DNA of 18,332 nucleotides from a virus. A program made the translations under genes and the position numbers. The notes below the pieces were generated by a model. That model was given only the letters and a program-made list of their open reading frames with translations, was not told where the DNA came from and ran no database searches. The stretch is from positions 1 to 18,332 of IMG/VR virus record IMGVR_UViG_3300006217_000549, one strand, 5' to 3'. Shown piece after piece: positions 3,729 to 17,973 of this stretch (its first letter is position 1; every line of letters starts with the position of its first letter).

Positions 3729-4466
3729 ATGCACTATTCAGTCGGTTGGTCTGGCGGAAAAGATAGCACAGCAAGCATTATACTAGCTCATATACACAAT
3801 GAACCCGTTGATAGTATTGTGTTTGTAGAAGTGATGTTTGATATAGCAAATGGAATCAGTGGGGAGAACCCACAACATATTGACTTCATAAAGAATAAAG
3901 CAATACCATTATTTGAATCATGGGGATATAAAGTTGATGTCGTTCATTCTGACCGTGATTTTCTATCCGTATTCAACAGAGTGATTGAAAGACCTACAAA
4001 GCATCTTGAACACAAAGGTCTGAAATACGGGTTCCCTCCAAATGGTCTTTGCTCAATAAAGCGAGACTGTAAAATGAGAGCGATCAAGTCATATTATAAG
4101 AACATTGCAGAAGAGTACATTCAGTATGTTGGAATTGCGGTTGACGAGCCGAAGCATCTTGCAAGACTCCATAAAACAAAAAACATTTCTCTACTTGAAA
4201 AAAATGGCCTGACAGAATCTAATGCAATGCAATTATGTAAAGAATGCGATTTATTAAGTCCAACTTATAAATTATCCAAAAGAGGTGGATGCTGGTTCTG
4301 CCCTAATGCAAAGTTGACAGAACACAGAGACATACGAAATCGATATCCAGAAGTATGGAAGCAGTACATCAATCTTGAGTGTGAAAAGGTTGCGTTTGAT
4401 AAATGGAATACGTTTTCAGATAAGACTCTTCACGATATAGAGCAAATATTATCAAAAGAAGAATAA
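3729..4466 (+). CDS. phosphoadenosine phosphosulfate (PAPS) reductase-family PP-loop ATPase, phage type
   Basis: PP-loop motif WSGGKDSTA at residues 7-15 and the C-terminal GGCWFCP cysteine pair typical of phage PAPS-reductase-like proteins. There is no SD at the proper distance from the ATG (see findings). Confidence 0.85.
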   Translation: MHYSVGWSGGKDSTASIILAHIHNEPVDSIVFVEVMFDIANGISGENPQHIDFIKNKAIPLFESWGYKVDVVHSDRDFLSVFNRVIERPTKHLEHKGLKYGFPPNGLCSIKRDCKMRAIKSYYKNIAEEYIQYVGIAVDEPKHLARLHKTKNISLLEKNGLTESNAMQLCKECDLLSPTYKLSKRGGCWFCPNAKLTEHRDIRNRYPEVWKQYINLECEKVAFDKWNTFSDKTLHDIEQILSKEE

Positions 4467-4860: not shown

Positions 4861-5148
4861 ATGAATCTGAAATTAAAACCATGTCCATTCTGCGGTGGAG
4901 CCGGTAGAGTAAGAGCATTCAAAAATGGATACAGGATTGTTTGTAAAAACTGCGGTTCCACCTCACGTTACTTATTTATTCAGCCGTGGCATGACAGCAA
5001 ATCAGTTGCTCAGTGTCAAGCTGCAAAAGCATGGAATTCCCGTATAAAGCAATTTTCCAGTCCTTGTGATTTATGTATGTATAATCCCCCGTCAAGTACA
5101 GATGGAAAACCGTGCAGTATGTGTCCCGCAGGCGCAATTCACAAATAA
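4861..5148 (+). CDS. lar: Lar-family restriction-alleviation-like zinc-ribbon protein with an extra C-terminal CxxC..PPSS..GKPCxxCP module
   Basis: LKPCPFCGG..VCKNCG..AAKAWNSR is the Lar-family (Rac prophage Lar-like) pattern. The C-terminal CDLCMYNPPSSTDGKPCSMCPAG is shared with ORF 9905-10195. Confidence 0.7.
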   Translation: MNLKLKPCPFCGGAGRVRAFKNGYRIVCKNCGSTSRYLFIQPWHDSKSVAQCQAAKAWNSRIKQFSSPCDLCMYNPPSSTDGKPCSMCPAGAIHK

Positions 5149-5161
5149 AAGAAAGGTTAAA

Positions 5162-5341
5162 ATGGTGACAAAAATGGCAGAGTTTTGCAGGAAATGTTTC
5201 ATCAGTCGTTTAATGCCCAGCAAATATGATATAGACCATATTGTAATGAGCGAGGACGAGGACTTTTGCGAAGGATGTATGAAGTGGGGAAAATATGTAG
5301 ACCACATTGATTGCTCCGAACGCAAAGAAAATAAAGAATAA
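5162..5341 (+). CDS. small zinc-finger protein (59 aa), paralog of the N-terminus of 8856-9188
   Basis: The track ORF is trimmed to ATG 5162 (AAAGAAAGG upstream). It has CRKC and CEGC pairs. It shares ..HIVMS.D..FCEGCM....YVDHID with 8856-9188, including 15-nt and 18-nt identical DNA blocks. Confidence 0.6.
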   Translation: MVTKMAEFCRKCFISRLMPSKYDIDHIVMSEDEDFCEGCMKWGKYVDHIDCSERKENKE

Positions 5342-5881: not shown

Positions 5882-6160
5882 ATGAAGCAAATCAGAAGAG
5901 GTGTCTTTGAGACCAACAGCAGCTCCACTCACAGCATTACAATCTGCACGCTGGAAGATTACGAAAAGTTTAAGAGAGGCGAACTTCTCTATGACAGATG
6001 GGAGGAAAAACTTGTTCCGGCAGACGCAGAGCATGTTTCCAGCGACGACTGTGAGACATACAAGGAATTTGGCAGATATCTTGAAACCTATGCTGAAGGA
6101 TTTAGAACACCAAGTGGTGACGAGATTGTTGCCTTCGGGTACTATGGCTACGACGGATAA
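5882..6160 (+). CDS. uncharacterised protein with the same N-terminal VFETNSSSTHSI motif (92 aa), short paralog
   Basis: AGGAGGAAAAA SD lies upstream. Residues 8-19 are identical to those of 5358-5861 although 7 of the 12 codons differ synonymously. Confidence 0.65.
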   Translation: MKQIRRGVFETNSSSTHSITICTLEDYEKFKRGELLYDRWEEKLVPADAEHVSSDDCETYKEFGRYLETYAEGFRTPSGDEIVAFGYYGYDG

Positions 6161-6176
6161 ACGAGGTGGTAGTGAA

Positions 6177-7106
6177 ATGAATCTTCTTGGTACATATCAG
6201 AACGGGAACTACACCGTAAAAATTTATAGTGACGGCACCAAAATCCGTAAAAACGACCTGGATTTTTTCAAGCCGGAGTTCCCGGAGTCCATGGATATCA
6301 AGATTACCAATCAATGCGACAAGTTGTGCAAGTTCTGCCATGAAGCGTCGGTTCCTGATGGACGGCATGGGGACGTTATGAACCTTCCGTTTCTGGAGAC
6401 GCTGCATCCATACACAGAACTGGCCATCGGAGGCGGCAATCCTTTGTCGCACCCCGACCTGATTCCATTCCTTGAAGGGCTGAAGGAACGCAAGCTGATT
6501 CCAAGTATGACGGCCAATCAAACGCATTTCCTGGAGAATATTCCTCTGTTATCGATGCTTTCTGAACGCGAACTTCTTTATGGCCTTGGAGTTTCCTTTA
6601 TTTCAGGCACACCCCAGGATGAATTGAACAGAATGATTGGCGCACTGGAGAAATTTCCGAACGCAGTAATCCACGTCATTAACGGCATTGTGTCCGTAGA
6701 GGAACTGCGTGCGCTCGCTTTCCATGATTTCAAGGTATTGATTCTTGGGTACAAGAAATTCCGGCGCGGAGCACATAACTGGGCAGAAGACGAAGAAGAG
6801 ATTGTATCAAGGCAGCGCAATCTGTACGACGAGCTTCCCGCCATCATCCAGTCTGGGTGGTTCCATACGGTCAGCTTTGATAACCTGGCCGTCAATCAGT
6901 TAGGTGTCCGGCGACTGATGGATAGTGCATCATGGGAACGTTTCTATATGGGAGACGACGGCAACTACACGATGTATGTGGACGCTGTAAACCGCGAATA
7001 TGCAGTCTGCTCGGTATCACAGGTACGGTATCCTCTGACGGATAACATCAAGGAAATGTTTGATACGGTTCTAAAAGAGCCAGAAAGGTACAGGGCAGAT
7101 AAGTAA
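6177..7106 (+). CDS. radical SAM protein (309 aa)
   Basis: The track ORF 5901-7106 is trimmed to ATG 6177 (GAGGTGG SD). It has the CX3CX2C cluster motif ITNQCDKLCKFCHE and a GGE-like motif IGGGNPLSHPDL. No C-terminal SPASM-type cysteines are present. Confidence 0.85.
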   Translation: MNLLGTYQNGNYTVKIYSDGTKIRKNDLDFFKPEFPESMDIKITNQCDKLCKFCHEASVPDGRHGDVMNLPFLETLHPYTELAIGGGNPLSHPDLIPFLEGLKERKLIPSMTANQTHFLENIPLLSMLSERELLYGLGVSFISGTPQDELNRMIGALEKFPNAVIHVINGIVSVEELRALAFHDFKVLILGYKKFRRGAHNWAEDEEEIVSRQRNLYDELPAIIQSGWFHTVSFDNLAVNQLGVRRLMDSASWERFYMGDDGNYTMYVDAVNREYAVCSVSQVRYPLTDNIKEMFDTVLKEPERYRADK

Positions 7107-8675: not shown

Positions 8676-8831
8676 TTGAAACAGGAATCATGGATTGCTC
8701 GAATTATAAATCGACTGTTAGAGCGTCTTGGAATAATCAAAATGTATGGAATTAGCAAAGAGGATATGTGCAAAGGTGCGCAATCTATTTGCAATAGAAA
8801 TTGTGATTCTTGCGCATGGAAAAGTGAATGA
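8676..8831 (+). CDS. possible small Cys-rich protein (51 aa, TTG start)
   Basis: Below the track's size cut-off. TTG 8676 lies 10 nt after GAAAGG. The translation ..MCKGAQSICNRNCDSCAWKSE fills an otherwise empty 187-nt gap in a tightly packed operon. Confidence 0.3.
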   Translation: MKQESWIARIINRLLERLGIIKMYGISKEDMCKGAQSICNRNCDSCAWKSE

Positions 8832-8855
8832 AAGGTTAATTTGGTGGTGGTATAA

Positions 8856-9188
8856 ATGGCAGAATTGTGTTTGAAATGTTTCCTTGAAACTTGGCGTCCA
8901 AACGCATATGACCGTGCCCATATTGTAATGAGCAAAGACAATGAGTTTTGCGAAGGATGTATGGATTGCGTTCCGTATGTAGACCATATCGACCCGTCTG
9001 ATTTGCGGCGCACTCCAACGGTAGCAGACTTTGTTCAGGTAGTGGTTCCAGAAATAAAGGCTGGGCGTAAAATTGCCTGCACAGAATGCGGTGCCACTTT
9101 TGAAGATGATGATTTGGCTTTTGCGCATGAAGTCGGTGAATGTCCATACTGCCACACACAAGTCAGGGCGCTTTGGATGAGAGAATAA
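8856..9188 (+). CDS. multi-zinc-ribbon protein (110 aa); N-terminus paralogous to 5162-5341
   Basis: TTTGGTGGTG lies upstream. It has CLKC, CEGC, CTEC and CPYC pairs, and shares ..HIVMS.D..FCEGCM with 5162-5341. Confidence 0.65.
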   Translation: MAELCLKCFLETWRPNAYDRAHIVMSKDNEFCEGCMDCVPYVDHIDPSDLRRTPTVADFVQVVVPEIKAGRKIACTECGATFEDDDLAFAHEVGECPYCHTQVRALWMRE

Positions 9189-10195: not shown

Positions 10196-10264
10196 CTTCA
10201 TCTGTTTCCTTCTGGGACGCAGGGACAGTCTGAATCTATTTTGCAGGCGATATGTAAAAGGATA

Positions 10265-10610: not shown

Positions 10611-10766
10611 GTTTACCCAAGCTGTTACTACACAAATTGTGTGGATGAGTCATTTCTGCTCACCTCTTACAGTCACCTGCAAGTTCAGACTGTGCCTTCA
10701 TCCCAGAGGGATGCTCCGTGTCCAGTCGTTAGATATTCAGTATCTACAAACAAAGCAGACTCTCTA

Positions 10767-11653: not shown

Positions 11654-11680
11654 ACCCATATGACAGCAATGATAAAAGTC

Positions 11681-11709
11681 TTTATCTTTGCTGTCATTTA
11701 TGTTATAAT
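11681..11709 (+). promoter_or_regulatory. candidate promoter with extended -10 (TGTTATAAT) for the serine recombinase
   Basis: TGnTATAAT at 11701-11709, with a weak -35 TTTATC at 11681-11686 (17-nt spacer). Confidence 0.4.
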
Positions 11710-11752
11710 GATTATGGGTATAGGTTGGTTATTGAAAGGAGAACCAACGAAA

Positions 11753-13261
11753 ATGAGAATAGCCGCATATTGCCGTGTATCAACCGATGAAGAGAAACAG
11801 CTTGATAGCTTGGCGAACCAGAAAAATTTTTTTGAAGAGTATGCAGCAAAGAATGGTCACGTATTAGTACGTTTGTATGCTGATGAGGGCATTTCTGGGA
11901 CCAGCTTGAAAAAGCGTGACGAGTTTATTAGACTTCTATACGATGCCAAACTTGGATTATTTGACATGGTTGTTGTTAAAGACGTATCCAGGCTGGCAAG
12001 GAATACAGTAGACTTCCTGCAAAGCATCCGTACACTGAAAGGACTTGGAATAAATACACTGTTTCTCACTTCAAATATGGACAGCCTTGGTGAATCAGAA
12101 TTCGTCCTTACGTTATTTGGTGCTATGGCGCAGGAAGAAAGCGCTAATCTTAGCAAGCGAGTAAAATTTGGCAAAGAAATCAGCGCAAAAAAAGGCAGGG
12201 TTCCGCAGAGAGTTTTCGGATATGATAGAATCGACAACTTTACTCTCGTTATCAATGAAAAAGAAGCACAGATTGTTCGTGAAATTTACCGTATGTATAT
12301 TGAAGAAGGGCTTGGATGTCGCAAAATCAGTATTAAATTAAACGAATCTGGACATAAAACAAAATTTAATTGTGAATGGAACCCAAGAGGTGTTAGGCGT
12401 GTACTAGAAAATCCAATCTATAGTGGACACTATATCAATCACAAATATGAAGTTGGAGACTACTTAGTAGGAAAGGTAGTACGTACTCCAGAGGACCAGC
12501 ACTTTCACCATGATAGGCCAGAATGGGAGATCGTGTCTCCGGAAACATTTGCAAAAGCACAAAAACAGTTAGAAATGCGTCGAAAACAATATAATACCGG
12601 AGAACCATTTATGCAGGCACGATACAGTAGCAAGTACATATTTAGCACTCTAATCAAATGTGAACATTGCGGTCGTTCCTTTTCAAGAAAAGTCCACAAA
12701 TATGTTAATACTTATATATATTGGGTATGTCCAACAAATTATCAATACACAGCAGAAAAATGTGATAATAAAACTAAATTAAGAGAGGACATCCTTCTTT
12801 CTAAAGTCAAAGAATATCTTGCATCATTGATTCAAGACAAAAGCACTTTTGTAAATAAGATAATTGAAGAAATAGAGAAACAAAATCAAACAAAATGCAT
12901 CAAACATGATGCCTCAGATATAAAAATGAAGCGTAAACGTCTCATCGCAAAAAAAGAACGATACCAGGAAATGTACGCAAATGATGTAATGACCATGACC
13001 GAACTAAAAGAAAAGACAGCCGCAATTGCAGAAGAGCTAGAACGGCTTGACTGCTCAATGAAACAATATGCGCAAATGATTGCTTTTCAAAAGAATGGAG
13101 AAGATTACATAAGGCGTTATATACAAGATATCGAGCAATTCCTAAATATGGAGACAGTAACGAACATAGATATGCGAAAAGTAATAAGTCGTATCACAGT
13201 AAACAAAGACAAAACCATAAAAATTGAACTGAAGAAATTTGATATCGATGACATACTATAG
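11753..13261 (+). CDS. large serine recombinase (phage integrase type, 502 aa)
   Basis: The track ORF is trimmed to ATG 11753 (AAAGGAGAA SD). It has the resolvase catalytic domain MRIAAYCRVSTDEEKQ..., then the recombinase domain, the zinc-ribbon CEHCGRSF..WVCPTN..EKCDN, and a C-terminal coiled coil. Confidence 0.92.
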   Translation: MRIAAYCRVSTDEEKQLDSLANQKNFFEEYAAKNGHVLVRLYADEGISGTSLKKRDEFIRLLYDAKLGLFDMVVVKDVSRLARNTVDFLQSIRTLKGLGINTLFLTSNMDSLGESEFVLTLFGAMAQEESANLSKRVKFGKEISAKKGRVPQRVFGYDRIDNFTLVINEKEAQIVREIYRMYIEEGLGCRKISIKLNESGHKTKFNCEWNPRGVRRVLENPIYSGHYINHKYEVGDYLVGKVVRTPEDQHFHHDRPEWEIVSPETFAKAQKQLEMRRKQYNTGEPFMQARYSSKYIFSTLIKCEHCGRSFSRKVHKYVNTYIYWVCPTNYQYTAEKCDNKTKLREDILLSKVKEYLASLIQDKSTFVNKIIEEIEKQNQTKCIKHDASDIKMKRKRLIAKKERYQEMYANDVMTMTELKEKTAAIAEELERLDCSMKQYAQMIAFQKNGEDYIRRYIQDIEQFLNMETVTNIDMRKVISRITVNKDKTIKIELKKFDIDDIL

Positions 13262-13265
13262 AACC

Positions 13266-13311
13266 TACCTATTTGATGTCAATGACATCTACAACTGACA
13301 TCAAATAGGTA
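13266..13311. repeat. 46-bp palindrome: perfect 16-bp arms TACCTATTTGATGTCA / TGACATCAAATAGGTA with a 14-nt spacer (candidate att site or hairpin)
   Basis: Arms at 13266-13281 and 13296-13311 were read directly. It starts 4 nt after the recombinase stop. An inner alternative pairing GATGTCA-A-TGACATC is also present. Confidence 0.85.
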
Positions 13312-13350
13312 TGTACAATCACCAACCTATACCCTATTAAATAGTATAGA

Positions 13351-13396: not shown

Positions 13397-14641
13397 TTAC
13401 AATTTATAACAAATCGAACACAATCCCAAGTTGATTTTTCCTGGGCCTCCATATTCAGCAAATTCAGAACTCTGTTTTACCTCCCCACAACACTCACATT
13501 GAATCCAGCGGCGTGTAAACTTATCATATGTAGGCATTTCCGCACAAGGGTTGAAAATCTTTTTTATTCTATTTTCCTCAGCGAGAAGTTCTTCTGCACT
13601 TGCCGTCTCTGGCCGTCTTATTTCAAGTTCAGGAATTTGTAGTGTTGTAATAGCCGGACGGTTTGCAGCCGTGCTACGACTTTGAAATTTCGCAAACATT
13701 TGCTGCTGTTCTATATACATTTGTCTGTTTCGTTTTCTCTTTTCCTCTTCTTTTTTTATATTCCAATCATTACGCTCTTGAATTTTTGCTATTTTATTCT
13801 GTAAAATTTTTGGGTCCTTATAGAAATCTTTATGTGATTGAATTCCTGATTTAGCTATACATAAAAAATAATCCTGTTCCCCAACATTAAAAGGACAATA
13901 TACACAATTTGTCCAGTGTACAGTATATCTACCCTGATATTTTCTAATATGAATTGGGCATTCCCAATCAGGGTCTTCTGCATCATGAGCCTTTTCAACG
14001 AAACGTTTTTTCCATTTGTCAATCAATTCACTTCTAATCCATTTTTGCTCTATGTCTTTAGATGCTATAAATTTTCTCAAATTATCCGGAAAAAAGAAAC
14101 TCTCATCGTCAATATTTGGGAAATAGCATAATAAAGACGAATAGTTTTCATTTCTTGATTCCTTTTCAAAGTTTTGTAAATCTTCTTTTGAATAATAGTA
14201 GTCAAACTCCAATAATATCCGTAATTTGCTTCCAGAGACAGTCAAAAACAGATTAGGAGGATACTGTAATGGTTCACAACTAAATTCTACATTTTCTATA
14301 GAGACATATCGACCTGGCTTCAACAGGTCACCACGTCTCCATGCAGGAAAAGAAAGTATAATTGGTGGGAGGTAAAAGCGGCGCAATTCGTCAAGGATAC
14401 CTGCAACTGCCTTATAAATTGAAACTTCGCTTGCATATAAGCAATCATAATTGGATACATGAGCGAAGTGGTGTTTCCTGACTGAACCTTTTCTTGCTTC
14501 CAACGGCTTGTTGCAAGCGCAGCAAACACAACCACATTTTTCTCCGCTTACTACCTCAGAAATATGTCTAATATTACCTGTAACAGAATCTTTTCCAAAC
14601 AGTATATTATGCGCGGTTCTCTTTTTTACATTGTTCCCCAT
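13397..14641 (-). CDS. CoiA-like protein with additional Cys/His clusters, a coiled coil and a C-terminal zinc ribbon (414 aa)
   Basis: The track ORF is trimmed to ATG 14641 (AGGAGAA SD). CVCCACNKPLEARKGSVRKHHFAHVSNYDC matches the CoiA N-terminal C..C..G....HFAH....C signature. Further features are CPIH..CVYCP, the K/E-rich segment IKKEEEKRKRNRQ, and the C-terminal CECCG..CSIC. Confidence 0.7.
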   Translation of the reverse strand: MGNNVKKRTAHNILFGKDSVTGNIRHISEVVSGEKCGCVCCACNKPLEARKGSVRKHHFAHVSNYDCLYASEVSIYKAVAGILDELRRFYLPPIILSFPAWRRGDLLKPGRYVSIENVEFSCEPLQYPPNLFLTVSGSKLRILLEFDYYYSKEDLQNFEKESRNENYSSLLCYFPNIDDESFFFPDNLRKFIASKDIEQKWIRSELIDKWKKRFVEKAHDAEDPDWECPIHIRKYQGRYTVHWTNCVYCPFNVGEQDYFLCIAKSGIQSHKDFYKDPKILQNKIAKIQERNDWNIKKEEEKRKRNRQMYIEQQQMFAKFQSRSTAANRPAITTLQIPELEIRRPETASAEELLAEENRIKKIFNPCAEMPTYDKFTRRWIQCECCGEVKQSSEFAEYGGPGKINLGLCSICYKL

Positions 14642-14674
14642 AATATTCTCCTGCAATTTTCAATCTATTTTATA

Positions 14675-14723: not shown

Positions 14724-14764
14724 AAAAAAATAGGGGAACCAATCAACTATGATTAGTTCCCCTA
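14724..14764 (-). terminator. rho-independent terminator of the lysis operon
   Basis: Minus strand reads TAGGGGAACTAATCA-(4 nt)-TGATTGGTTCCCCTA (15-bp stem, one mismatch) followed by TTTTTTT. It lies 25 nt after the endolysin stop. Confidence 0.75.
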
Positions 14765-14789
14765 CGTTATAATGAAATACTATTAACTT

Positions 14790-15410
14790 TTACACCTTGC
14801 CAACCAACTTAGCGAACCGATACAACATGGTACACATTTGTTGTTTAGTAATATTCTGAGCAAGACCGAGGTCTCCGTTTTGGTTTCCCTTGATAATCCC
14901 ATTTTTAACGGCCCATTCTACCGCATCCTTATGGGCAGGGCTTGGCACATTGTTCACAGGCTGAACCTCCTTTTTGTAATCTGGCCGGATATACGCAGTA
15001 ACAGTAGAAGTCTTTCGTGTCCGGCGGCAAACCATACCGCCGTTAGACTGACTCCCAACGGTCCCTGGCGATGTATTCCCTTCGATTGCTGTAATCGTAC
15101 CGTTTCCAACAGATTCTACAATCCCCGTATGTCCAAAATTGTAGATGATGATGTCTCCTGGAGCAGGTGTCTTGACTACACTGGATGGAAGATTCTTCTT
15201 ATACCATCCGAGAAGCGCGGAGCAAGAAGCTGTCTTATACGGCAAAGGCATTCCAGCCTGTGAAAAGCAGTAAAGGACAAACATCACACACCATGCCACG
15301 CCATTCCAGCCATACCAGACTCCATATTTCTGCTTATTAGAGTTTGCCGGGCTTTCCTTTGTTCCGATTTCTCTCCTGGCAATATCAAGAACTTCATTAA
15401 CCGTTGCCAT
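14790..15410 (-). CDS. CHAP-domain peptidoglycan hydrolase (endolysin) with a C-terminal SLH-like wall-binding repeat
   Basis: GGAGG SD. The CHAP catalytic Cys context is NGVAWCVMFV and the His context is FGHTGIVESV. The C-terminal HKDAVEWAVKNGIIKGNQNGDLGLAQNITKQQMCTMLYRF resembles an S-layer-homology motif. Confidence 0.85.
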   Translation of the reverse strand: MATVNEVLDIARREIGTKESPANSNKQKYGVWYGWNGVAWCVMFVLYCFSQAGMPLPYKTASCSALLGWYKKNLPSSVVKTPAPGDIIIYNFGHTGIVESVGNGTITAIEGNTSPGTVGSQSNGGMVCRRTRKTSTVTAYIRPDYKKEVQPVNNVPSPAHKDAVEWAVKNGIIKGNQNGDLGLAQNITKQQMCTMLYRFAKLVGKV

Positions 15411-15711
15411 TATACGCCTCCAATTGCCGATGGAGCTTCAGAACTGCCGCCTCGATAGCGTTGTCCACCTCTTTGTCCTCTAAGTAATATCCTTTTTCGG
15501 ACAGAAAATCCAAGACATACTGCTTTCTTTCAGCACCATCCAAATCATGAAAGAGCTGTTGGGCAGCGGCAACAGCAATCTCTACCCACTTCAACATATC
15601 CTCTCGTTCCTGCGCTGTGGTCTTCCGTCTAATCCACGGAATCAGAAATGCAGCGATAAGCGCTGAAACCAAAGTTACAATAGCTTCTACAACTGGCGTC
15701 AAATTGACCAT
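15397..15711 (-). CDS. holin, LL-H-family-like (104 aa)
   Basis: A single N-terminal TM (VVEAIVTLVSALIAAFLIPWI) is followed by a charged helical tail ending ..DNAIEAAVLKL. It lies immediately upstream of the endolysin and overlaps it by 14 nt. Confidence 0.7.
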   Translation of the reverse strand: MVNLTPVVEAIVTLVSALIAAFLIPWIRRKTTAQEREDMLKWVEIAVAAAQQLFHDLDGAERKQYVLDFLSEKGYYLEDKEVDNAIEAAVLKLHRQLEAYNGNG

Positions 15712-15767: not shown

Positions 15768-16028
15768 TCATATATCTTCGTTATACTGTGTATCTGTGCT
15801 ATCCGTATATCCAAAAATACCGCCGTTGTTATGTTCAAAAATATTTTCAACGACCTTCATGGCATTTACGCCAAAAAGCGTAGAAATTGCCTGCTGACTC
15901 AACTCCGTTACAGGAAACGGCTGTCCTAAGCAAACTGTCGAGTATATAGCAATAAGATATGATATGCTAACCCATCCCAGCGCAGCTATCTGCGTAGTAA
16001 TAAATAATCCCCTGGTTACGCTTTTCAT
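15768..16028 (-). CDS. small membrane protein (86 aa), translationally coupled to the tyrosine recombinase
   Basis: GGGAGG SD lies inside the recombinase 3' end, and the ATG overlaps the recombinase TGA (ATGA at 16025-16028). It has one clear TM (GLFITTQIAALGWVSISYLIAIY). Confidence 0.55.
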   Translation of the reverse strand: MKSVTRGLFITTQIAALGWVSISYLIAIYSTVCLGQPFPVTELSQQAISTLFGVNAMKVVENIFEHNNGGIFGYTDSTDTQYNEDI

Positions 16029-17062
16029 TCTGACCTCCCCAATTCACTCAAGGCAGTTGACTGAGGCGCAATAATCTCTCCGCCTGAAAAATACTTCCCT
16101 ATCTCTTCATCCTTATCAAGGTCAACATAAACGCGAACCATATCGGCGGAATCCCAGCCAACAATAGATTGAATCACGGAATCCGGAAGATTTGCTTTTG
16201 CCAAAGACGTAGTGAAGAAATGCCGGAGACTGTGCCAATAAATCGGAACACCCAAAATATTAGAGAACGTCTCCGCCCAACTATTCAATGTAGAAATAGG
16301 AACTGGACGTGTGGGGTCATTTCTATCAGGAAACAGCCATTCACTGTTAATGTGTTCCTCCTGACGTTTTTGCATCCATAAATCGAGATACGGACTGAAT
16401 GGTTTTGCCAGCACATAGCAAGTCAGCATTTTCCCATTCACTCCCCTTCCCTTTGTCCTGATTTTCTCAGGTGTCTTGTAAAGGGAGCCATAAATAATGT
16501 TCGCGTCGTCGAAGTACGAAACCTTGAATCTGACCAGTTCTGACTTACGTCGGCCAGAATACCGCGCCAAGGCGAAGCAGCAGGCTTTCTCATACTGGCC
16601 ATGCTCTACCAAATAATTCAGAAGCCTGTCTGCCTGTTCATCTGTCAACACAGTTTTTTCTCTTGCTGGCTCATTAACTGGATTCTCAATTTTTCTGATA
16701 ATTGACCGGAAGTTTGGCAGCTCATCGTCCAGAATCGCCTCAATATAGTTACTCATAGAGGAAAGCGTACTTTTCAACCGGCGCACGCGGGCGGGAGAGT
16801 TCTCGTTTGTTCTAATCAGCCAATTCTGATAGGCCACGATATCCCGCTTACTTATTTCAGGAAAATATTTATTTTCAGCATATTGAAGTACCCATACAAA
16901 GAAAATATTCAAATCACTTTCATACGCATGAACCGTAGTCTCTGCTTTTCCAACGCTCCGCAGATATTCCAGAAAATCGTTCATCAGCCTGATATTCTTT
17001 GGATTTATCTGCGAAACCAGCTCCGGAGTACAAATCCTATTTTGCTTTGTCTTACGTCCCAT
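16025..17062 (-). CDS. tyrosine site-specific recombinase (phage-integrase family, 345 aa)
   Basis: The track ORF is trimmed to ATG 17062 (GGAGGTGAGAGTT upstream). It has an N-terminal SAM-like core-binding domain (..TVHAYESDLNIFFVW..). Catalytic elements are ARYSGRRKSEL, HSLRHFFTT and MVRVYVD (Tyr). Confidence 0.9.
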   Translation of the reverse strand: MGRKTKQNRICTPELVSQINPKNIRLMNDFLEYLRSVGKAETTVHAYESDLNIFFVWVLQYAENKYFPEISKRDIVAYQNWLIRTNENSPARVRRLKSTLSSMSNYIEAILDDELPNFRSIIRKIENPVNEPAREKTVLTDEQADRLLNYLVEHGQYEKACCFALARYSGRRKSELVRFKVSYFDDANIIYGSLYKTPEKIRTKGRGVNGKMLTCYVLAKPFSPYLDLWMQKRQEEHINSEWLFPDRNDPTRPVPISTLNSWAETFSNILGVPIYWHSLRHFFTTSLAKANLPDSVIQSIVGWDSADMVRVYVDLDKDEEIGKYFSGGEIIAPQSTALSELGRSE

Positions 17063-17153
17063 AACTCTCACCTCCTAATACAGAGAGGGCCGCACCATTA
17101 AAGTACGACCCTAGGAATGCTCACAAAATAAGAGTTTTATTAACTTTTCTACC

Positions 17154-17447
17154 TCAGTCCAAAATCAGGGTGTCGCCTTTGACTTCATAGCATTTTCCCT
17201 TGAAGTAAACACGCGCAGGCATATTACCGACACTATAAACCAGCTTGCCACCCTTGACACGCACCTTGTCCAGAGAACCAGTACCGGTATCCAAAAGACC
17301 ATACGCATTTTCTTCACCGGGTTTAATGACATTCTTCTGTGGGTCGATGTAAAGCCCGCCGGGTAAAGCGGCAAGAGCTTCGTTGGCTTCCTCCAGAGTC
17401 TTTTCGCCAGTGGTGTAATCTCTGATGATTTCGTTAATTTGTTCCAT
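17154..17447 (-). CDS. hypothetical phage protein (97 aa)
   Basis: The track ORF is trimmed to ATG 17447 (GAAAGGA 8 nt upstream). Confidence 0.6.
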   Translation of the reverse strand: MEQINEIIRDYTTGEKTLEEANEALAALPGGLYIDPQKNVIKPGEENAYGLLDTGTGSLDKVRVKGGKLVYSVGNMPARVYFKGKCYEVKGDTLILD

Positions 17448-17492
17448 AGTATACATCCTTTCTTATTTGTTATGTATTATGTTTATAGGTTC

Positions 17493-17906
17493 TTACAGAA
17501 ATTCTTTCAACCCCAATGCAACGGCGATGATGGCGAAAACCACTCCCAAAATCCATCCGATGCCCTGCTTCTTAATATGTTCCCAGGTTTCTCCTGGCTT
17601 ACTGTTTATGGCATCGACTTCAGCCTCCAGTTTATTTACATCGTTTTCCAGGTCATCAACTTTATCAACTTTGGTGGTAATAGTAGTCAGCTTCTCAAGA
17701 ATATTCTTACTGTCACCCTTCACCTCGTTCAGGGTCCCCATAATCATTCCGAGCTGACCCCTCTGTTCCGCGTATTCGAGTTCGAGCTTATGGATGTCCT
17801 CACGCATCATTCGATGGTCTTCCCCGTTGCGCCGTTCGAGAGCTGCAAACCTGTCCTCCAATGATTCAAGTGCGCCGCATCCGTTTTTATCACAATTTTC
17901 AGACAT
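17493..17906 (-). CDS. xhlA: XhlA-like lysis-associated protein (137 aa)
   Basis: The track ORF is trimmed to ATG 17906 (GGAAGGAGG SD). It has a long coiled-coil region and a single C-terminal TM (GIGWILGVVFAIIAVALGL), as in haemolysin XhlA-family proteins of Bacillus/Clostridium prophage lysis modules. Confidence 0.65.
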   Translation of the reverse strand: MSENCDKNGCGALESLEDRFAALERRNGEDHRMMREDIHKLELEYAEQRGQLGMIMGTLNEVKGDSKNILEKLTTITTKVDKVDDLENDVNKLEAEVDAINSKPGETWEHIKKQGIGWILGVVFAIIAVALGLKEFL

Positions 17907-17932
17907 TTTTACCTCCTTCCTTTTTATGCAAC

Positions 17933-17973
17933 AACGCCGCCTGTACATTTTTGTAGGGACGGCGTTACTTTTT
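17933..17973 (+). terminator. imperfect hairpin followed by TTTTT on the plus strand (terminator-like; faces antisense to the lysis genes)
   Basis: AACGCCG (17933-17939) pairs with CGGCGTT (17960-17966), with extra inner pairs, then ACTTTTT. On the minus strand no U-tract follows. Confidence 0.3.

What the first reader, a model, noticed from the sequence alone, without database searches (positions are those of the whole stretch)
15768..17153. A second, tyrosine-type recombinase embedded in the lysis cassette and coupled to a small membrane protein
The minus-strand gene order is XhlA-like, a 97-aa ORF, the tyrosine recombinase (17062-16025), an 86-aa membrane protein, the LL-H holin, then the CHAP endolysin. 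The membrane protein's ATG overlaps the recombinase stop (ATGA). The element already encodes a large serine integrase about 3 kb away, with a candidate att site next to it. So this is a second, mechanistically unrelated recombinase. It sits among late/lysis genes rather than in a lysogeny module, and composition looks the same as its neighbours by eye. One possibility is a Xer-like dimer-resolution function for an episomal prophage. Another is an invertase switching a late-gene segment that lies beyond the window. A third is a remnant of a nested element that brought the lysis genes. An 11-nt direct repeat TATTAACTTTT occurs at 14781-14791 (overlapping the endolysin stop) and at 17138-17148 (5 nt past the stop of 17154-17447). 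These positions bracket exactly the recombinase-plus-lysis block. This is weak evidence, because 11-mers recur by chance in 18 kb of AT-rich DNA.
Basis: partly seen in the sequence, partly recalled or inferred. Interest (0 to 1): 0.6.

Follow-up and report, generated by a model that had tools for sequence, protein, structure and literature searches.

The report
Orphan Xer-like recombinase beside phage lysis genes
This gut phage carries an intact extra DNA recombinase just ahead of its cell-lysis genes; it belongs to a known family of "orphan" recombinases found in the same place in many large phages of Gram-positive bacteria, and its job is still unproven.

Summary
On the minus strand the order is XhlA-like, ORF100, tyrosine recombinase (17062-16025), an 86-aa membrane protein (ATGA overlap), LL-H holin, CHAP endolysin. 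A large serine integrase lies 3 kb away.

The recombinase is intact (R171-K204-H277-R280-W303-Y312, invariant across the family). It is a two-domain Xer/Cre-type enzyme with no arm-binding domain. It is 77-84% identical to a gene in the same slot, just before the endolysins, in about 100-140 kb Oscillospiraceae phages whose flanking genes are unrelated. More distant full-length homologues are Staphylococcus SEP9 gp30, Tyrovirus gp50 and the pBS32 "integrase"; those of SEP9 and pBS32 lie beside the lysis genes at the end of the late arm, while gp50 lies between the neck and tape-measure genes. Two papers call this role unclear.

- The 11-mer repeat is at chance level.
- The overlap with the membrane protein is incidental.
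- I found no inversions or nested-element boundaries.
- Relatives have a separate lysogeny integrase next to the attachment junction.
- One complete relative lacks the gene, so it is accessory.
- Where present it is under strong purifying selection.

The best reading is a Xer/Cre-like recombinase acting on the phage's own replicating circles. Its target site was not found. This scan had already noted the same family on other DNA.

The parts
16025..17062 (-). Tyrosine recombinase, 345 aa. N-terminal SAM-like core-binding domain plus catalytic domain; no arm-binding domain.
   Evidence: Pfam PF13495 and PF00589 above cut-off. R171, K204, H277, R280, W303 and Y312 are invariant in 19 family members. 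AF2 pLDDT is 86 and the best folds are XerA, IntI, XerH and Cre.
17067..17075 (-). Ribosome-binding site GGAGGTGAG of the recombinase, conserved in relatives.
   Evidence: Read from the sequence; alignment of upstream regions.
17086..17112 (-). Hairpin (11 pairs) between ORF100 and the recombinase. An RNA terminator/attenuator that late transcripts must read through; the T-run is poor in this window.
   Evidence: Consensus scan. In 9 relatives the stem is kept through 4 pairs with compensatory changes, and sense-strand G.U wobbles are frequent, although four stem positions hold occasional non-pairs; the loop sequence is not conserved.
17113..17143 (-). Conserved motif upstream of the hairpin. 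It is a decayed copy of an early-promoter family (GGTTAGCAA-N16-TGTAAT), oriented away from the recombinase and into the late operon. It is not a recombination site.
   Evidence: Upstream alignment. There are 25 copies of TTGCTAACC, all on one strand, in the complete relative G003 against about 1 expected; most of the 20 examined are followed by RBS and ATG on the opposite strand.
15768..16028 (-). 86-aa single-pass membrane protein of the lysis cassette. Its start overlaps the recombinase stop (ATGA).
   Evidence: 30 homologues in other phages have no recombinase nearby; a few are followed by a holin or endolysin or preceded by XhlA.
15397..15711 (-). LL-H type holin.
   Evidence: PF09682 E 3e-12; phrog_6918.
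14790..15410 (-). CHAP endolysin with an SLH-like C-terminal wall-binding domain.
   Evidence: PF05257 and PF00395; endolysin PHROGs.
14730..14765 (-). Terminator of the lysis operon.
   Evidence: 16-pair stem followed by TTTTTTT.
17154..17456 (-). ORF100 (97 aa from the second ATG), phage protein of unknown function upstream of the recombinase module.
   Evidence: phrog_23092. The homologue in L113 is followed by another cargo gene, a holin and the endolysin, with no recombinase.
17493..17948 (-). XhlA-like coiled-coil membrane protein.
   Evidence: phrog_937 'hemolysin' E 1e-7 and phrog_689 holin.
11660..13261 (+). Large serine integrase, the probable lysogeny integrase of this phage.
   Evidence: PF00239, PF07508 and PF13408; phrog_95 E 8e-121. 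It takes the place that a 450-aa tyrosine integrase holds in relatives.
13258..13319 (.). 24-nt imperfect palindrome at the 3' end of the serine integrase gene; candidate attP (not tested).
   Evidence: Inverted repeat I4, 88% complementary.
14781..14791 (+). Copy 1 of the 11-mer TATTAACTTTT; chance repeat.
17138..17148 (+). Copy 2 of the 11-mer TATTAACTTTT; it overlaps the promoter-like motif. Chance repeat.

Best explanation
The gene encodes a catalytically intact, simple (Xer/Cre-type, two-domain) tyrosine recombinase. It is an accessory gene, strongly conserved where present, of a lineage of large (about 100-140 kb) Oscillospiraceae phages. It belongs to the wider family of 'orphan' recombinases that sit in the late arm of large Firmicutes siphophages and phage-plasmids, in most examined cases beside the lysis genes (Sextaecvirus SEP9/6ec, Tyrovirus gp50, pBS32).

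Shown:
- The active-site residues are intact.
- The family relationship holds over the full length.
- The same slot, just before the endolysins, is used in relatives with unrelated neighbours.
- Selection is strongly purifying.
- A separate lysogeny integrase exists (serine type here, a 450-aa tyrosine type in relatives), and in a Dysosmobacter prophage the host junction lies beyond the lysis genes.
- A conserved RNA hairpin directly precedes the ribosome-binding site, and no sense-strand promoter lies in between.

Inferred:
- The gene is made together with the lysis genes, by read-through of that terminator, late in infection.
- It acts on a short site, not yet identified, in the phage's own circular replicating DNA. 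There it would resolve or interconvert multimers, or cyclise the genome, as Cre/loxP and Xer/dif do.
- It is not used for integration, for local inversion, or as part of a nested element.
For: - Intact enzyme: catalytic set invariant in 19 homologues of 49-84% identity; Pfam domains above cut-off.
- Xer-like type: best curated profiles are XerA, XerD and XerC. PDB profile and fold hits are XerA, integron integrase, XerH and Cre. The protein starts directly with the core-binding domain.
- Same slot in relatives: 60 viral loci and 12 genome loci, 77-84% identical in phages of Dysosmobacter, Hominicoprocola and other Oscillospiraceae. Neighbours are unrelated but are again a membrane protein upstream and lysozyme/amidase downstream.
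- Selection: pN 0.11-0.15 with pS about 0.8 against the 77-84% relatives, and dN/dS 0.04-0.05 among relatives.
- Wider family: full-length BLASTP to Thrax4 gp50, pBS32, SEP9 and ATCCB gives E 1e-25 to 1e-32, but nothing to Cre, lambda Int or the relatives' own integrase.
- Same placement elsewhere: in SEP9 and pBS32 the homologue lies beside the endolysin at the end of the late arm.
- Plasmid hits: all 72 are non-mobilizable phage-plasmid-like replicons of Bacillus and Clostridium.
- Other integrases: complete relatives have three tyrosine recombinases, including a 450-aa integrase 4.5 kb away on the other strand. In Dysosmobacter segnis BX15, host genes begin 3.2 kb downstream of the recombinase, after the lysis genes.
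- Skew: the GC-skew switch (terminus-like point) lies 4-6 kb from the gene, both in the window and in the complete relative.
- Upstream hairpin: behaves as an RNA structure.
- Literature: the role of these recombinases is called unclear (PMC6507118, PMC9703825).
Against: - No recombination site was found. The only conserved non-coding DNA next to the gene is a terminator and a promoter-family motif.
- A complete 141-kb relative (G015) lacks the gene in this slot, so whatever it does is dispensable.
- Two more complete records that share another window gene also lack it.
- The position near the skew switch is confounded by gene orientation.
- Scores against the Xer equivalog models are far below cut-off.
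- Multimer resolution is not obviously needed by phages that package from concatemers.
Confidence: 0.45

Rival explanations
1. It is a second integrase. It integrates the phage, or lets it move between episome and chromosome, at an alternative attachment site, independently of the serine integrase.
For: Annotation pipelines call the family 'site-specific integrase'. Relatives are temperate and carry several recombinases. The Tyrovirus paper suggests integration as one option for gp50 (PMC9703825). The gene is accessory, as a spare integration function might be.
Against: - It has no arm-binding domain.
- In the Dysosmobacter prophage the junction with host DNA is 3.2 kb away, beyond the lysis genes and next to the slot of the other integrase.
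- Homologues occur in phages described as strictly lytic (6ec, SEP9; PMC6507118, PMC4125762).
- It is co-oriented with late genes behind a terminator, not in a lysogeny module.
- No att-like conserved sequence lies beside it.
Confidence: 0.13
2. It is a selfish or moron-like mobile cassette (the recombinase plus about 80 bp upstream) that inserts into the variable slot of lysis cassettes. Alternatively, it is the remnant of a nested element.
For: - DNA similarity to relatives is confined to 16068-17141, that is the gene plus 80 bp upstream.
- The flanks are unrelated in at least five contexts.
- L113 has ORF100 and the endolysin without it, and G015 has the empty slot.
- The native stop is replaced exactly at the junction with the next gene's ribosome-binding site.
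Against: - Synonymous sites are saturated, so there was no recent transfer.
- It always lies in the same functional position and orientation, never elsewhere in the genomes examined.
- There are no terminal repeats or target duplications.
- The window phage shares early genes and overall layout with the relatives, so vertical descent with flank replacement explains the pattern equally well.
Confidence: 0.12
3. It is a DNA invertase (shufflon/Rci-like) that switches a late-gene or tail-fibre segment lying partly beyond the window.
For: Relatives have hypervariable tail-fibre genes a few kb upstream, and an accessory fibre-like gene directly upstream in G003. Phage recombinase-driven fibre switches are known in general.
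Against: - The fibre variability in relatives is explained by a diversity-generating retroelement (reverse transcriptase plus template/variable repeats).
- There are no inverted matches between any of 60 loci with up to 8 kb of flank.
- Inverted repeats in the window are at chance level and none flanks the gene.
- The self-comparison of the 138-kb relative shows no inverted repeat pair near the gene.
Confidence: 0.06
4. It is a DNA-binding regulator with a recombinase fold (like SPbeta MrpR/YopR or phi3T SroF) that controls late or lysis transcription without recombining DNA.
For: The fold search also returns phi3T SroF bound to DNA (rank 42). The position at the head of the lysis unit, behind a terminator, would suit a regulator.
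Against: All six catalytic residues, including the tyrosine nucleophile, are invariant down to 49% identity, which would not be expected if catalysis were unused. No repeated operator-like motif attributable to it was found.
Confidence: 0.06

Closest known systems
Tyrosine recombinase of staphylococcal Cluster D / Sextaecvirus phages (SEP9 gp30, 6ec; 'pham 1333')
   Same: Full-length homologue (26% identity, E 3e-28). Same two-domain size class. Same strand as the virion and lysis genes, directly beside the endolysin, at the point where the two genome arms converge. Its role is stated to be unclear (PMC6507118).
   Different: Those phages are reported as lytic, with cos ends and about 90 kb genomes. 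There the gene follows the endolysin; here it precedes the holin and endolysin. This phage also has a serine integrase.
Tyrovirus gp50 (Bacillus phages Tsamsa, Thrax1-5)
   Same: Best isolated-phage homologue (29.5% identity, E 1e-32). It is one of three tyrosine recombinases in a large genome, as in the complete relatives here. It is co-transcribed with late genes, a position the authors call 'especially curious' (PMC9703825).
   Different: gp50 lies between the neck and tape-measure genes, not at the lysis genes. The host is Bacillus. The proposed 11-6-11 'attP' downstream of gp50 has no counterpart here.
pBS32 'site-specific integrase' (Bacillus subtilis NCIB 3610 plasmid prophage)
   Same: Full-length homologue (27% identity, E 3e-31). 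Gene order is tail spike, small membrane proteins, LysM lysin, recombinase, then opposite-strand genes.
   Different: It is carried on a stably maintained plasmid. Relatives of the window phage are found integrated in chromosomes.
Xer recombinases (XerA, XerD/XerC, XerH) and P1 Cre
   Same: Simple architecture (core-binding plus catalytic domain) and the full catalytic set. They are the best curated-profile, PDB-profile and fold matches. Tryptophan occupies the position of Cre W315 (my own knowledge of Cre, applied to the alignment).
   Different: Scores are far below the equivalog cut-offs (59.9 against 220 bits for XerA). There is no BLASTP similarity to Cre. No dif- or lox-like site was identified.

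Membership tests
Tyrosine recombinase superfamily (Phage_integrase, PF00589) | Catalytic R-K-H-R-(H/W)-Y set and Pfam score above cut-off | tested here: met
   PF00589 scores 63.4 bits against a 27.1 cut-off. R171, K204, H277, R280, W303 and Y312 are invariant in alignment A1. The fold matches solved recombinases.
Late-arm 'orphan' recombinases of large Firmicutes siphophages and phage-plasmids (SEP9/6ec, Tyrovirus gp50, pBS32) | Full-length sequence similarity to these proteins, to the exclusion of lysogeny integrases | tested here: met
   BLASTP gives E 1e-25 to 1e-32 over more than 89% of the length. Cre, lambda Int and the relatives' 450-aa integrase give E above 0.01.
Late-arm 'orphan' recombinases of large Firmicutes siphophages and phage-plasmids (SEP9/6ec, Tyrovirus gp50, pBS32) | Same strand as the late genes, beside the lysis genes, near the convergence of the two arms | tested here: met
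   Window; SEP9; pBS32; Oscillospiraceae relatives. Tyrovirus gp50 is in the late arm but not at the lysis genes.
Xer family (XerC/XerD/XerA/XerS equivalogs) | Score above the curated NCBIfam cut-off | tested here: not met
   XerA 59.9 against 220 bits; XerD 50.3 against 329.6; XerC 44.2 against 335; XerS 28 against 267.
Xer family (XerC/XerD/XerA/XerS equivalogs) | A dif-like core site (two roughly 11-bp inverted arms around 6-8 bp) on the replicon, usually near the terminus or the gene | tested here: inconclusive
   The only dyad beside the gene behaves as an RNA hairpin. No other non-coding DNA is conserved with relatives. The window holds only about 12% of the genome.
Cre-type cyclisation recombinase | A lox-like site close to the gene, and sequence relationship to Cre | tested here: not met
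   No BLASTP similarity (E 0.14) and no lox-like repeat. Only the fold and a Trp at the Cre W315 position are shared.
Lambda-type (arm-binding) phage integrase | N-terminal arm-binding domain, and a gene adjacent to attP or the prophage junction | tested here: not met
   The protein begins with the SAM-like core-binding domain at residue 26. The model shows helices from residue 6. The prophage junction in Dysosmobacter lies 3.2 kb away, beyond the lysis genes.
Shufflon/Rci-type or other DNA invertase | Inverted recombination sites bounding a segment found in both orientations | tested here: not met
   No significant inverted repeats around the gene. No inverted alignments among 60 loci or near the gene in the 138-kb relative. 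Reads were not available.
Integron integrase | Score above the TIGR02249 cut-off, and an adjacent attI site with a cassette array carrying attC sites | tested here: not met
   27.3 against 265 bits, N-terminal part only. No repeated attC-like elements in the flanks.
Recombinase-fold repressors (MrpR/YopR, SroF) | Catalytic residues degenerate; many operator copies in the genome | tested here: not met
   Catalytic residues are invariant. No repeated operator was found in the window. That these repressors have lost catalysis rests on my own knowledge.

The most novel reading that the evidence does not exclude
The recombinase itself makes its two borders recombination hot spots. It would capture or exchange cargo and lysis cassettes at a site overlapping its own gene ends, as an integron does. 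That would explain why both flanks are replaced by unrelated genes (five upstream and five downstream contexts) while the gene stays 77-84% identical and always heads the lysis unit.
Probability: 0.06. Interest if true: 0.8.

Novelty: new member of a known kind. Interest (0 to 1): 0.35.

Why it matters
Tyrosine recombinases embedded in the late or lysis arm of large Firmicutes phages, including strictly lytic ones, are an acknowledged and unexplained oddity (PMC6507118, PMC9703825).

This window extends the family to abundant gut Oscillospiraceae phages and adds several constraints on what the gene can be:
- It coexists with a dedicated lysogeny integrase of either chemistry, serine or tyrosine.
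- It is under strong purifying selection.
- It sits in a hypervariable slot behind a conserved terminator.
- It can be naturally absent.

These facts narrow the hypotheses and name tractable systems for a test: pBS32 in B. subtilis, SEP9/6ec, and isolate lysogens of Dysosmobacter and Hominicoprocola.

For this window alone the result is ordinary. It is a known kind of gene, not a new mechanism.

Tried and rejected
1. The 11-mer direct repeat as an element boundary. Rejected: it is at chance level and is not conserved.
2. The upstream dyad (17086-17112) as a dif/lox-like core site. Rejected in favour of an RNA terminator: there are compensatory changes, many of the imperfect pairs are sense-strand G.U wobbles, and the loop is variable.
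3. The conserved upstream motif as a recombination site. Rejected: it belongs to a family of 25 early-promoter copies in a complete relative and points away from the gene.
4. A search for any other short conserved non-coding DNA between the window and all relatives. Nothing was found.
5. A search for inversions among related loci. None was found. An apparent difference in L009 and L013 came from my own ORF picking on truncated contigs.
6. Self-comparison of the 138-kb relative. It showed only retroelement repeats and a 77-bp end overlap, which is most likely an assembly k-mer overlap of a circular contig rather than true terminal repeats.
7. A test of universality using an 80-aa gene shared with relatives. 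That gene is promiscuous, so the test is weak, but it led to the recombinase-less relative G015.
8. phmmer against the PDB gave nothing; a profile was needed.
9. No DNA match in the isolated-phage collection.
11. L080 (an Oscillibacter MAG) has a chimeric ORF joining the N-terminus of this recombinase to the C-terminus of the 450-aa integrase, beside host lysS. It is a single MAG contig, possibly an assembly chimera, and I did not use it as evidence.
Full report
**What is there**

The window is a whole IMG/VR virus record, an 18.3-kb fragment that CheckV estimates at about 12% of a genome. On the minus strand, from 17948 down to 14790, lie these genes:
- an XhlA-like coiled-coil membrane protein
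- ORF100 (phrog_23092)
- a 345-aa tyrosine recombinase at 17062-16025
- an 86-aa single-pass membrane protein at 16028-15768
- an LL-H holin
- a CHAP endolysin with an SLH-like tail

The ATG of the 86-aa ORF overlaps the recombinase TGA ('tcat' at 16025-16028 on the + strand). Next come a terminator at 14765-14730 and a low-GC CoiA-like gene with its own promoter-like site and terminator. A large serine integrase lies on the other strand (11660-13261), with a 24-nt palindrome at its 3' end. The first 10 kb are plus-strand early-type genes. The contig runs without a break from the lysis genes through the integrase region into the early genes. If attP lies beside the serine integrase, this DNA was therefore not integrated.

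**The 11-mer**

TATTAACTTTT occurs at the two stated places. In 54 of 200 shuffles the pattern occurs at least twice. The window holds 131 exact 11-mer direct-repeat pairs. The repeat is not conserved in relatives. It carries no information.

**The enzyme**

- Pfam finds an N-terminal SAM-like core-binding domain and the catalytic domain, and nothing before them.
- In an alignment of 19 homologues of 49-84% identity, R171, K204, H277, R280, W303 and Y312 are invariant.
- The best curated models are XerA, XerD and XerC, all far below their cut-offs.
- A family profile finds XerA, an archaeal Xer, XerH and XerD in the PDB.
- An AlphaFold model (pLDDT 86) is closest to XerA, the integron integrase, XerH, the Tn1549 integrase, the lambda Int core and Cre.

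It is therefore a simple recombinase without an arm-binding domain. It is not a member of any curated Xer equivalog.

**Relatives and synteny**

- The protein has thousands of homologues.
- Sixty viral contigs and twelve genome contigs encode relatives.
- Those at 77-84% identity lie in phages of about 70-140 kb, found in isolates of Dysosmobacter segnis, Hominicoprocola fusiformis and other Oscillospiraceae.
- None of the window's neighbouring proteins has a homologue next to those copies.
- The functional context is nevertheless the same. The order is tail fibre with a diversity-generating retroelement, small proteins, a membrane protein, the recombinase, a lysozyme and/or amidase endolysin, and holin-like proteins.
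- DNA similarity to the window is confined to 16068-17141, that is the gene plus about 80 bp upstream.
- The window phage also shares a few early genes (36-80% identity) and the overall two-arm layout with the complete 138-kb relative G003. There the recombinase (81%) and one 80-aa protein are the best-conserved genes.
- Against the 77-84% relatives, synonymous sites are saturated (pS about 0.8) while pN is 0.11-0.15. Among relatives dN/dS is 0.04-0.05.

This is old divergence under strong purifying selection, not a recent transfer or a decaying remnant.

**It is not the lysogeny integrase**

- Five large relatives each have three tyrosine recombinases. In four of them a 440-450-aa integrase lies about 4.5 kb downstream of this gene on the other strand.
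- In the window that place is taken by the serine integrase.
- In the Dysosmobacter segnis BX15 chromosome, host genes (a tRNA-binding protein, acetate kinase and others) begin 3.2 kb downstream of the recombinase, after the lysis genes.
- In the linear 141-kb record G015 the integrase is at one end and the lysis genes at the other.

The recombinase is therefore internal to the prophage.

**It is not a local invertase or a nested element**

- No inverted alignment exists between any of the 60 loci.
- The window's inverted repeats are ordinary.
- The 138-kb relative has no repeat pair near the gene apart from retroelement repeats.
- The 86-aa membrane protein has 30 homologues in smaller phages with no recombinase within 6 kb. 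A few are followed by a holin or endolysin or preceded by XhlA. In several of those checked the start overlaps or abuts the end of the upstream gene, whatever that gene is. The ATGA overlap is therefore a habit of that gene family, not a functional coupling.
- L113 has XhlA, ORF100, a different 350-aa cargo gene, a holin and a 57%-identical endolysin, with no recombinase.
- G015, a complete relative, has the membrane protein, a 67-aa acidic ORF and then the endolysin, and only two tyrosine recombinases.

The slot ahead of the lysis genes is thus a variable cargo slot. The recombinase is a frequent but dispensable occupant.

**The upstream non-coding DNA**

- The dyad at 17086-17112 is conserved in structure, not in sequence. 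Four of its pairs show compensatory changes, sense-strand G.U wobbles are frequent among the imperfect pairs, and the loop varies. This is the signature of an RNA terminator or attenuator, not of a protein-binding core site.
- The motif beyond it (17113-17143) is a decayed copy of a promoter family, GGTTAGCAA-N16-TGTAAT. In G003 the element occurs 25 times, all on one strand, and in most of the 20 examined it is followed by a ribosome-binding site and ATG.
- Upstream of the recombinase the motif points away from the gene, antisense into the late operon.
- No sense-strand promoter lies between the hairpin and the ribosome-binding site.
- I therefore infer that the recombinase and the lysis genes are expressed by read-through or antitermination of late transcripts. 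This was not tested.
- No other non-coding sequence is shared between the window and any relative. The recombination site remains unidentified.

**The wider family**

In the collection of isolated phages the homologues are:
- the Tyrovirus recombinase gp50 (Tsamsa, Thrax)
- Geobacillus E3
- large Staphylococcus and Mammaliicoccus siphophages (SEP9, the 6ec type)
- Lactobacillus ATCCB
- Enterococcus phages

On plasmids they are the pBS32 group of Bacillus subtilis and clostridial phage-plasmids. The latter include a 48.5%-identical copy on the Clostridium botulinum group III plasmid NC_015417, which I name but did not fetch.

BLASTP gives E 1e-25 to 1e-32 over the full length to these proteins. 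It gives nothing to Cre, lambda Int or the relatives' own integrase.

In SEP9 the order is receptor-binding protein, membrane proteins, holin, endolysin, recombinase, a terminator, then the opposite arm. In pBS32 it is tail spike, small proteins, LysM lysin, recombinase. Tyrovirus gp50 lies between the neck and tape-measure genes.

Two papers state that the role of these genes is unclear (PMC6507118 for the lytic staphylococcal Cluster D phages; PMC9703825 for Tyroviruses). Earlier notes of this scan describe the same family on other DNA and reached the same verdict.

**How it most likely works**

What the carriers have in common:
- They have genomes of at least 75 kb that replicate as circles. 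The Oscillospiraceae relatives and SEP9 have two convergent arms.
- The gene sits in the late arm. In the window, the Oscillospiraceae relatives, SEP9 and pBS32 it lies near the arm convergence.
- In G003 the cumulative GC skew peaks at 50 kb, with the gene at 43.6 kb. In the window it peaks at about 12 kb, with the gene at 16-17 kb.
- Homologues sit on phage-plasmids, which need multimer resolution.
- The architecture is that of enzymes that act on one short symmetric site.

I therefore favour a Cre/Xer-like action on the phage's own replicating DNA: resolution or interconversion of multimers, or cyclisation. I put the confidence at 0.45.

Weak points:
- No site has been found.
- The gene is dispensable in G015.
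- The skew argument is confounded by gene orientation.
- There are no read or expression data.

Rivals are a spare integrase (0.13), a mobile or moron-like cassette (0.12), an invertase (0.06) and a non-catalytic regulator (0.06). An integron-like role in cassette exchange at its own borders is the most novel reading not excluded (0.06).

**Verdict**

This is a new member of a known but functionally unexplained kind of phage gene. Interest is moderate to low for this window alone.

Noticed in passing
window 13258-13319 and 11716-11734 / 13316-13334: A 24-nt imperfect palindrome overlaps the stop of the serine integrase gene; it is a candidate attP. A separate 19-nt inverted repeat, 95% complementary, brackets almost the whole integrase gene.
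   Followed up: no
L062-L068 (relative G003), e.g. G003 107548-123568; a copy upstream of the recombinase in L023 7905-7945: A family of 25 near-identical promoter units (GGTTAGCAA-N16-TGTAAT, in many copies followed by AATAGGAGGTG and ATG) drives small genes of the early region. One copy sits in antisense orientation at the end of the late operon, just before the recombinase's terminator. It may produce an antisense transcript against late genes.
   Followed up: partly
L198 16097-16800 (record G015, 141 kb, 100% complete): A natural relative lacks the recombinase. The upstream membrane-protein gene is followed by a 67-aa acidic ORF and then the endolysin. The record has only two tyrosine recombinases.
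   Followed up: yes
L080 130-765: An Oscillibacter MAG contig has a chimeric ORF. It joins residues 12-63 of this recombinase to the catalytic C-terminus of the relatives' 450-aa integrase, next to host lysS and greA. This could be a rearranged prophage remnant or an assembly chimera. A 64%-identical serine integrase lies 7 kb away at the contig end.
   Followed up: partly
L023 1371-5951; G003 35910-36033, 37029-37152, 78144-78251: Relatives carry a diversity-generating retroelement 3 kb upstream of the recombinase: a reverse transcriptase (PF00078), a fibre protein with a variable C-terminus, and 108-124-nt repeats of 88-90% identity. One repeat copy lies 40 kb away on the other strand.
   Followed up: partly
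G003 1-77 and 138130-138206: The 'direct terminal repeat' of this IMG/VR record is exactly 77 bp long and has the sequence of a tRNA gene ending in CCA. A 77-bp overlap is typical of an assembler k-mer on a circular contig, so the record is probably circular rather than terminally redundant.
   Followed up: partly
window 13397-14656: A 419-aa CoiA-N-like, Cys-rich protein of low GC (0.36) sits between the lysis operon and the integrase. It has its own promoter-like site (14703-14675) and terminator (13393-13355), an arrangement like that of a moron.
   Followed up: no
window 5143-5310 and 8822-8992: Two paralogous stretches 3.68 kb apart (87 nt at 77% identity, plus adjacent shorter repeats) mark duplicated small early genes with the same ribosome-binding-site context.
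   Followed up: no
window 3729-4466 and 5901-7106: The early region encodes a PAPS-reductase-like protein (phrog_424) and a radical-SAM/Fe-S oxidoreductase (phrog_16999). These may be DNA- or nucleotide-modification genes.
   Followed up: no
window 10207-10234 / 10684-10711: A 28-nt inverted repeat (86% complementary) flanks a 90-aa Cys-rich minus-strand ORF at the switch between the early plus-strand genes and the integrase region.
   Followed up: no
L024 6204-7820 (G003 41818-43434): In G003 and its close kin, a 3.1-kb insertion directly upstream of the recombinase replaces the membrane-protein gene and the promoter motif. It carries a 538-aa fibre-like protein. This shows that the upstream border of the gene is a cargo hot spot.
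   Followed up: partly
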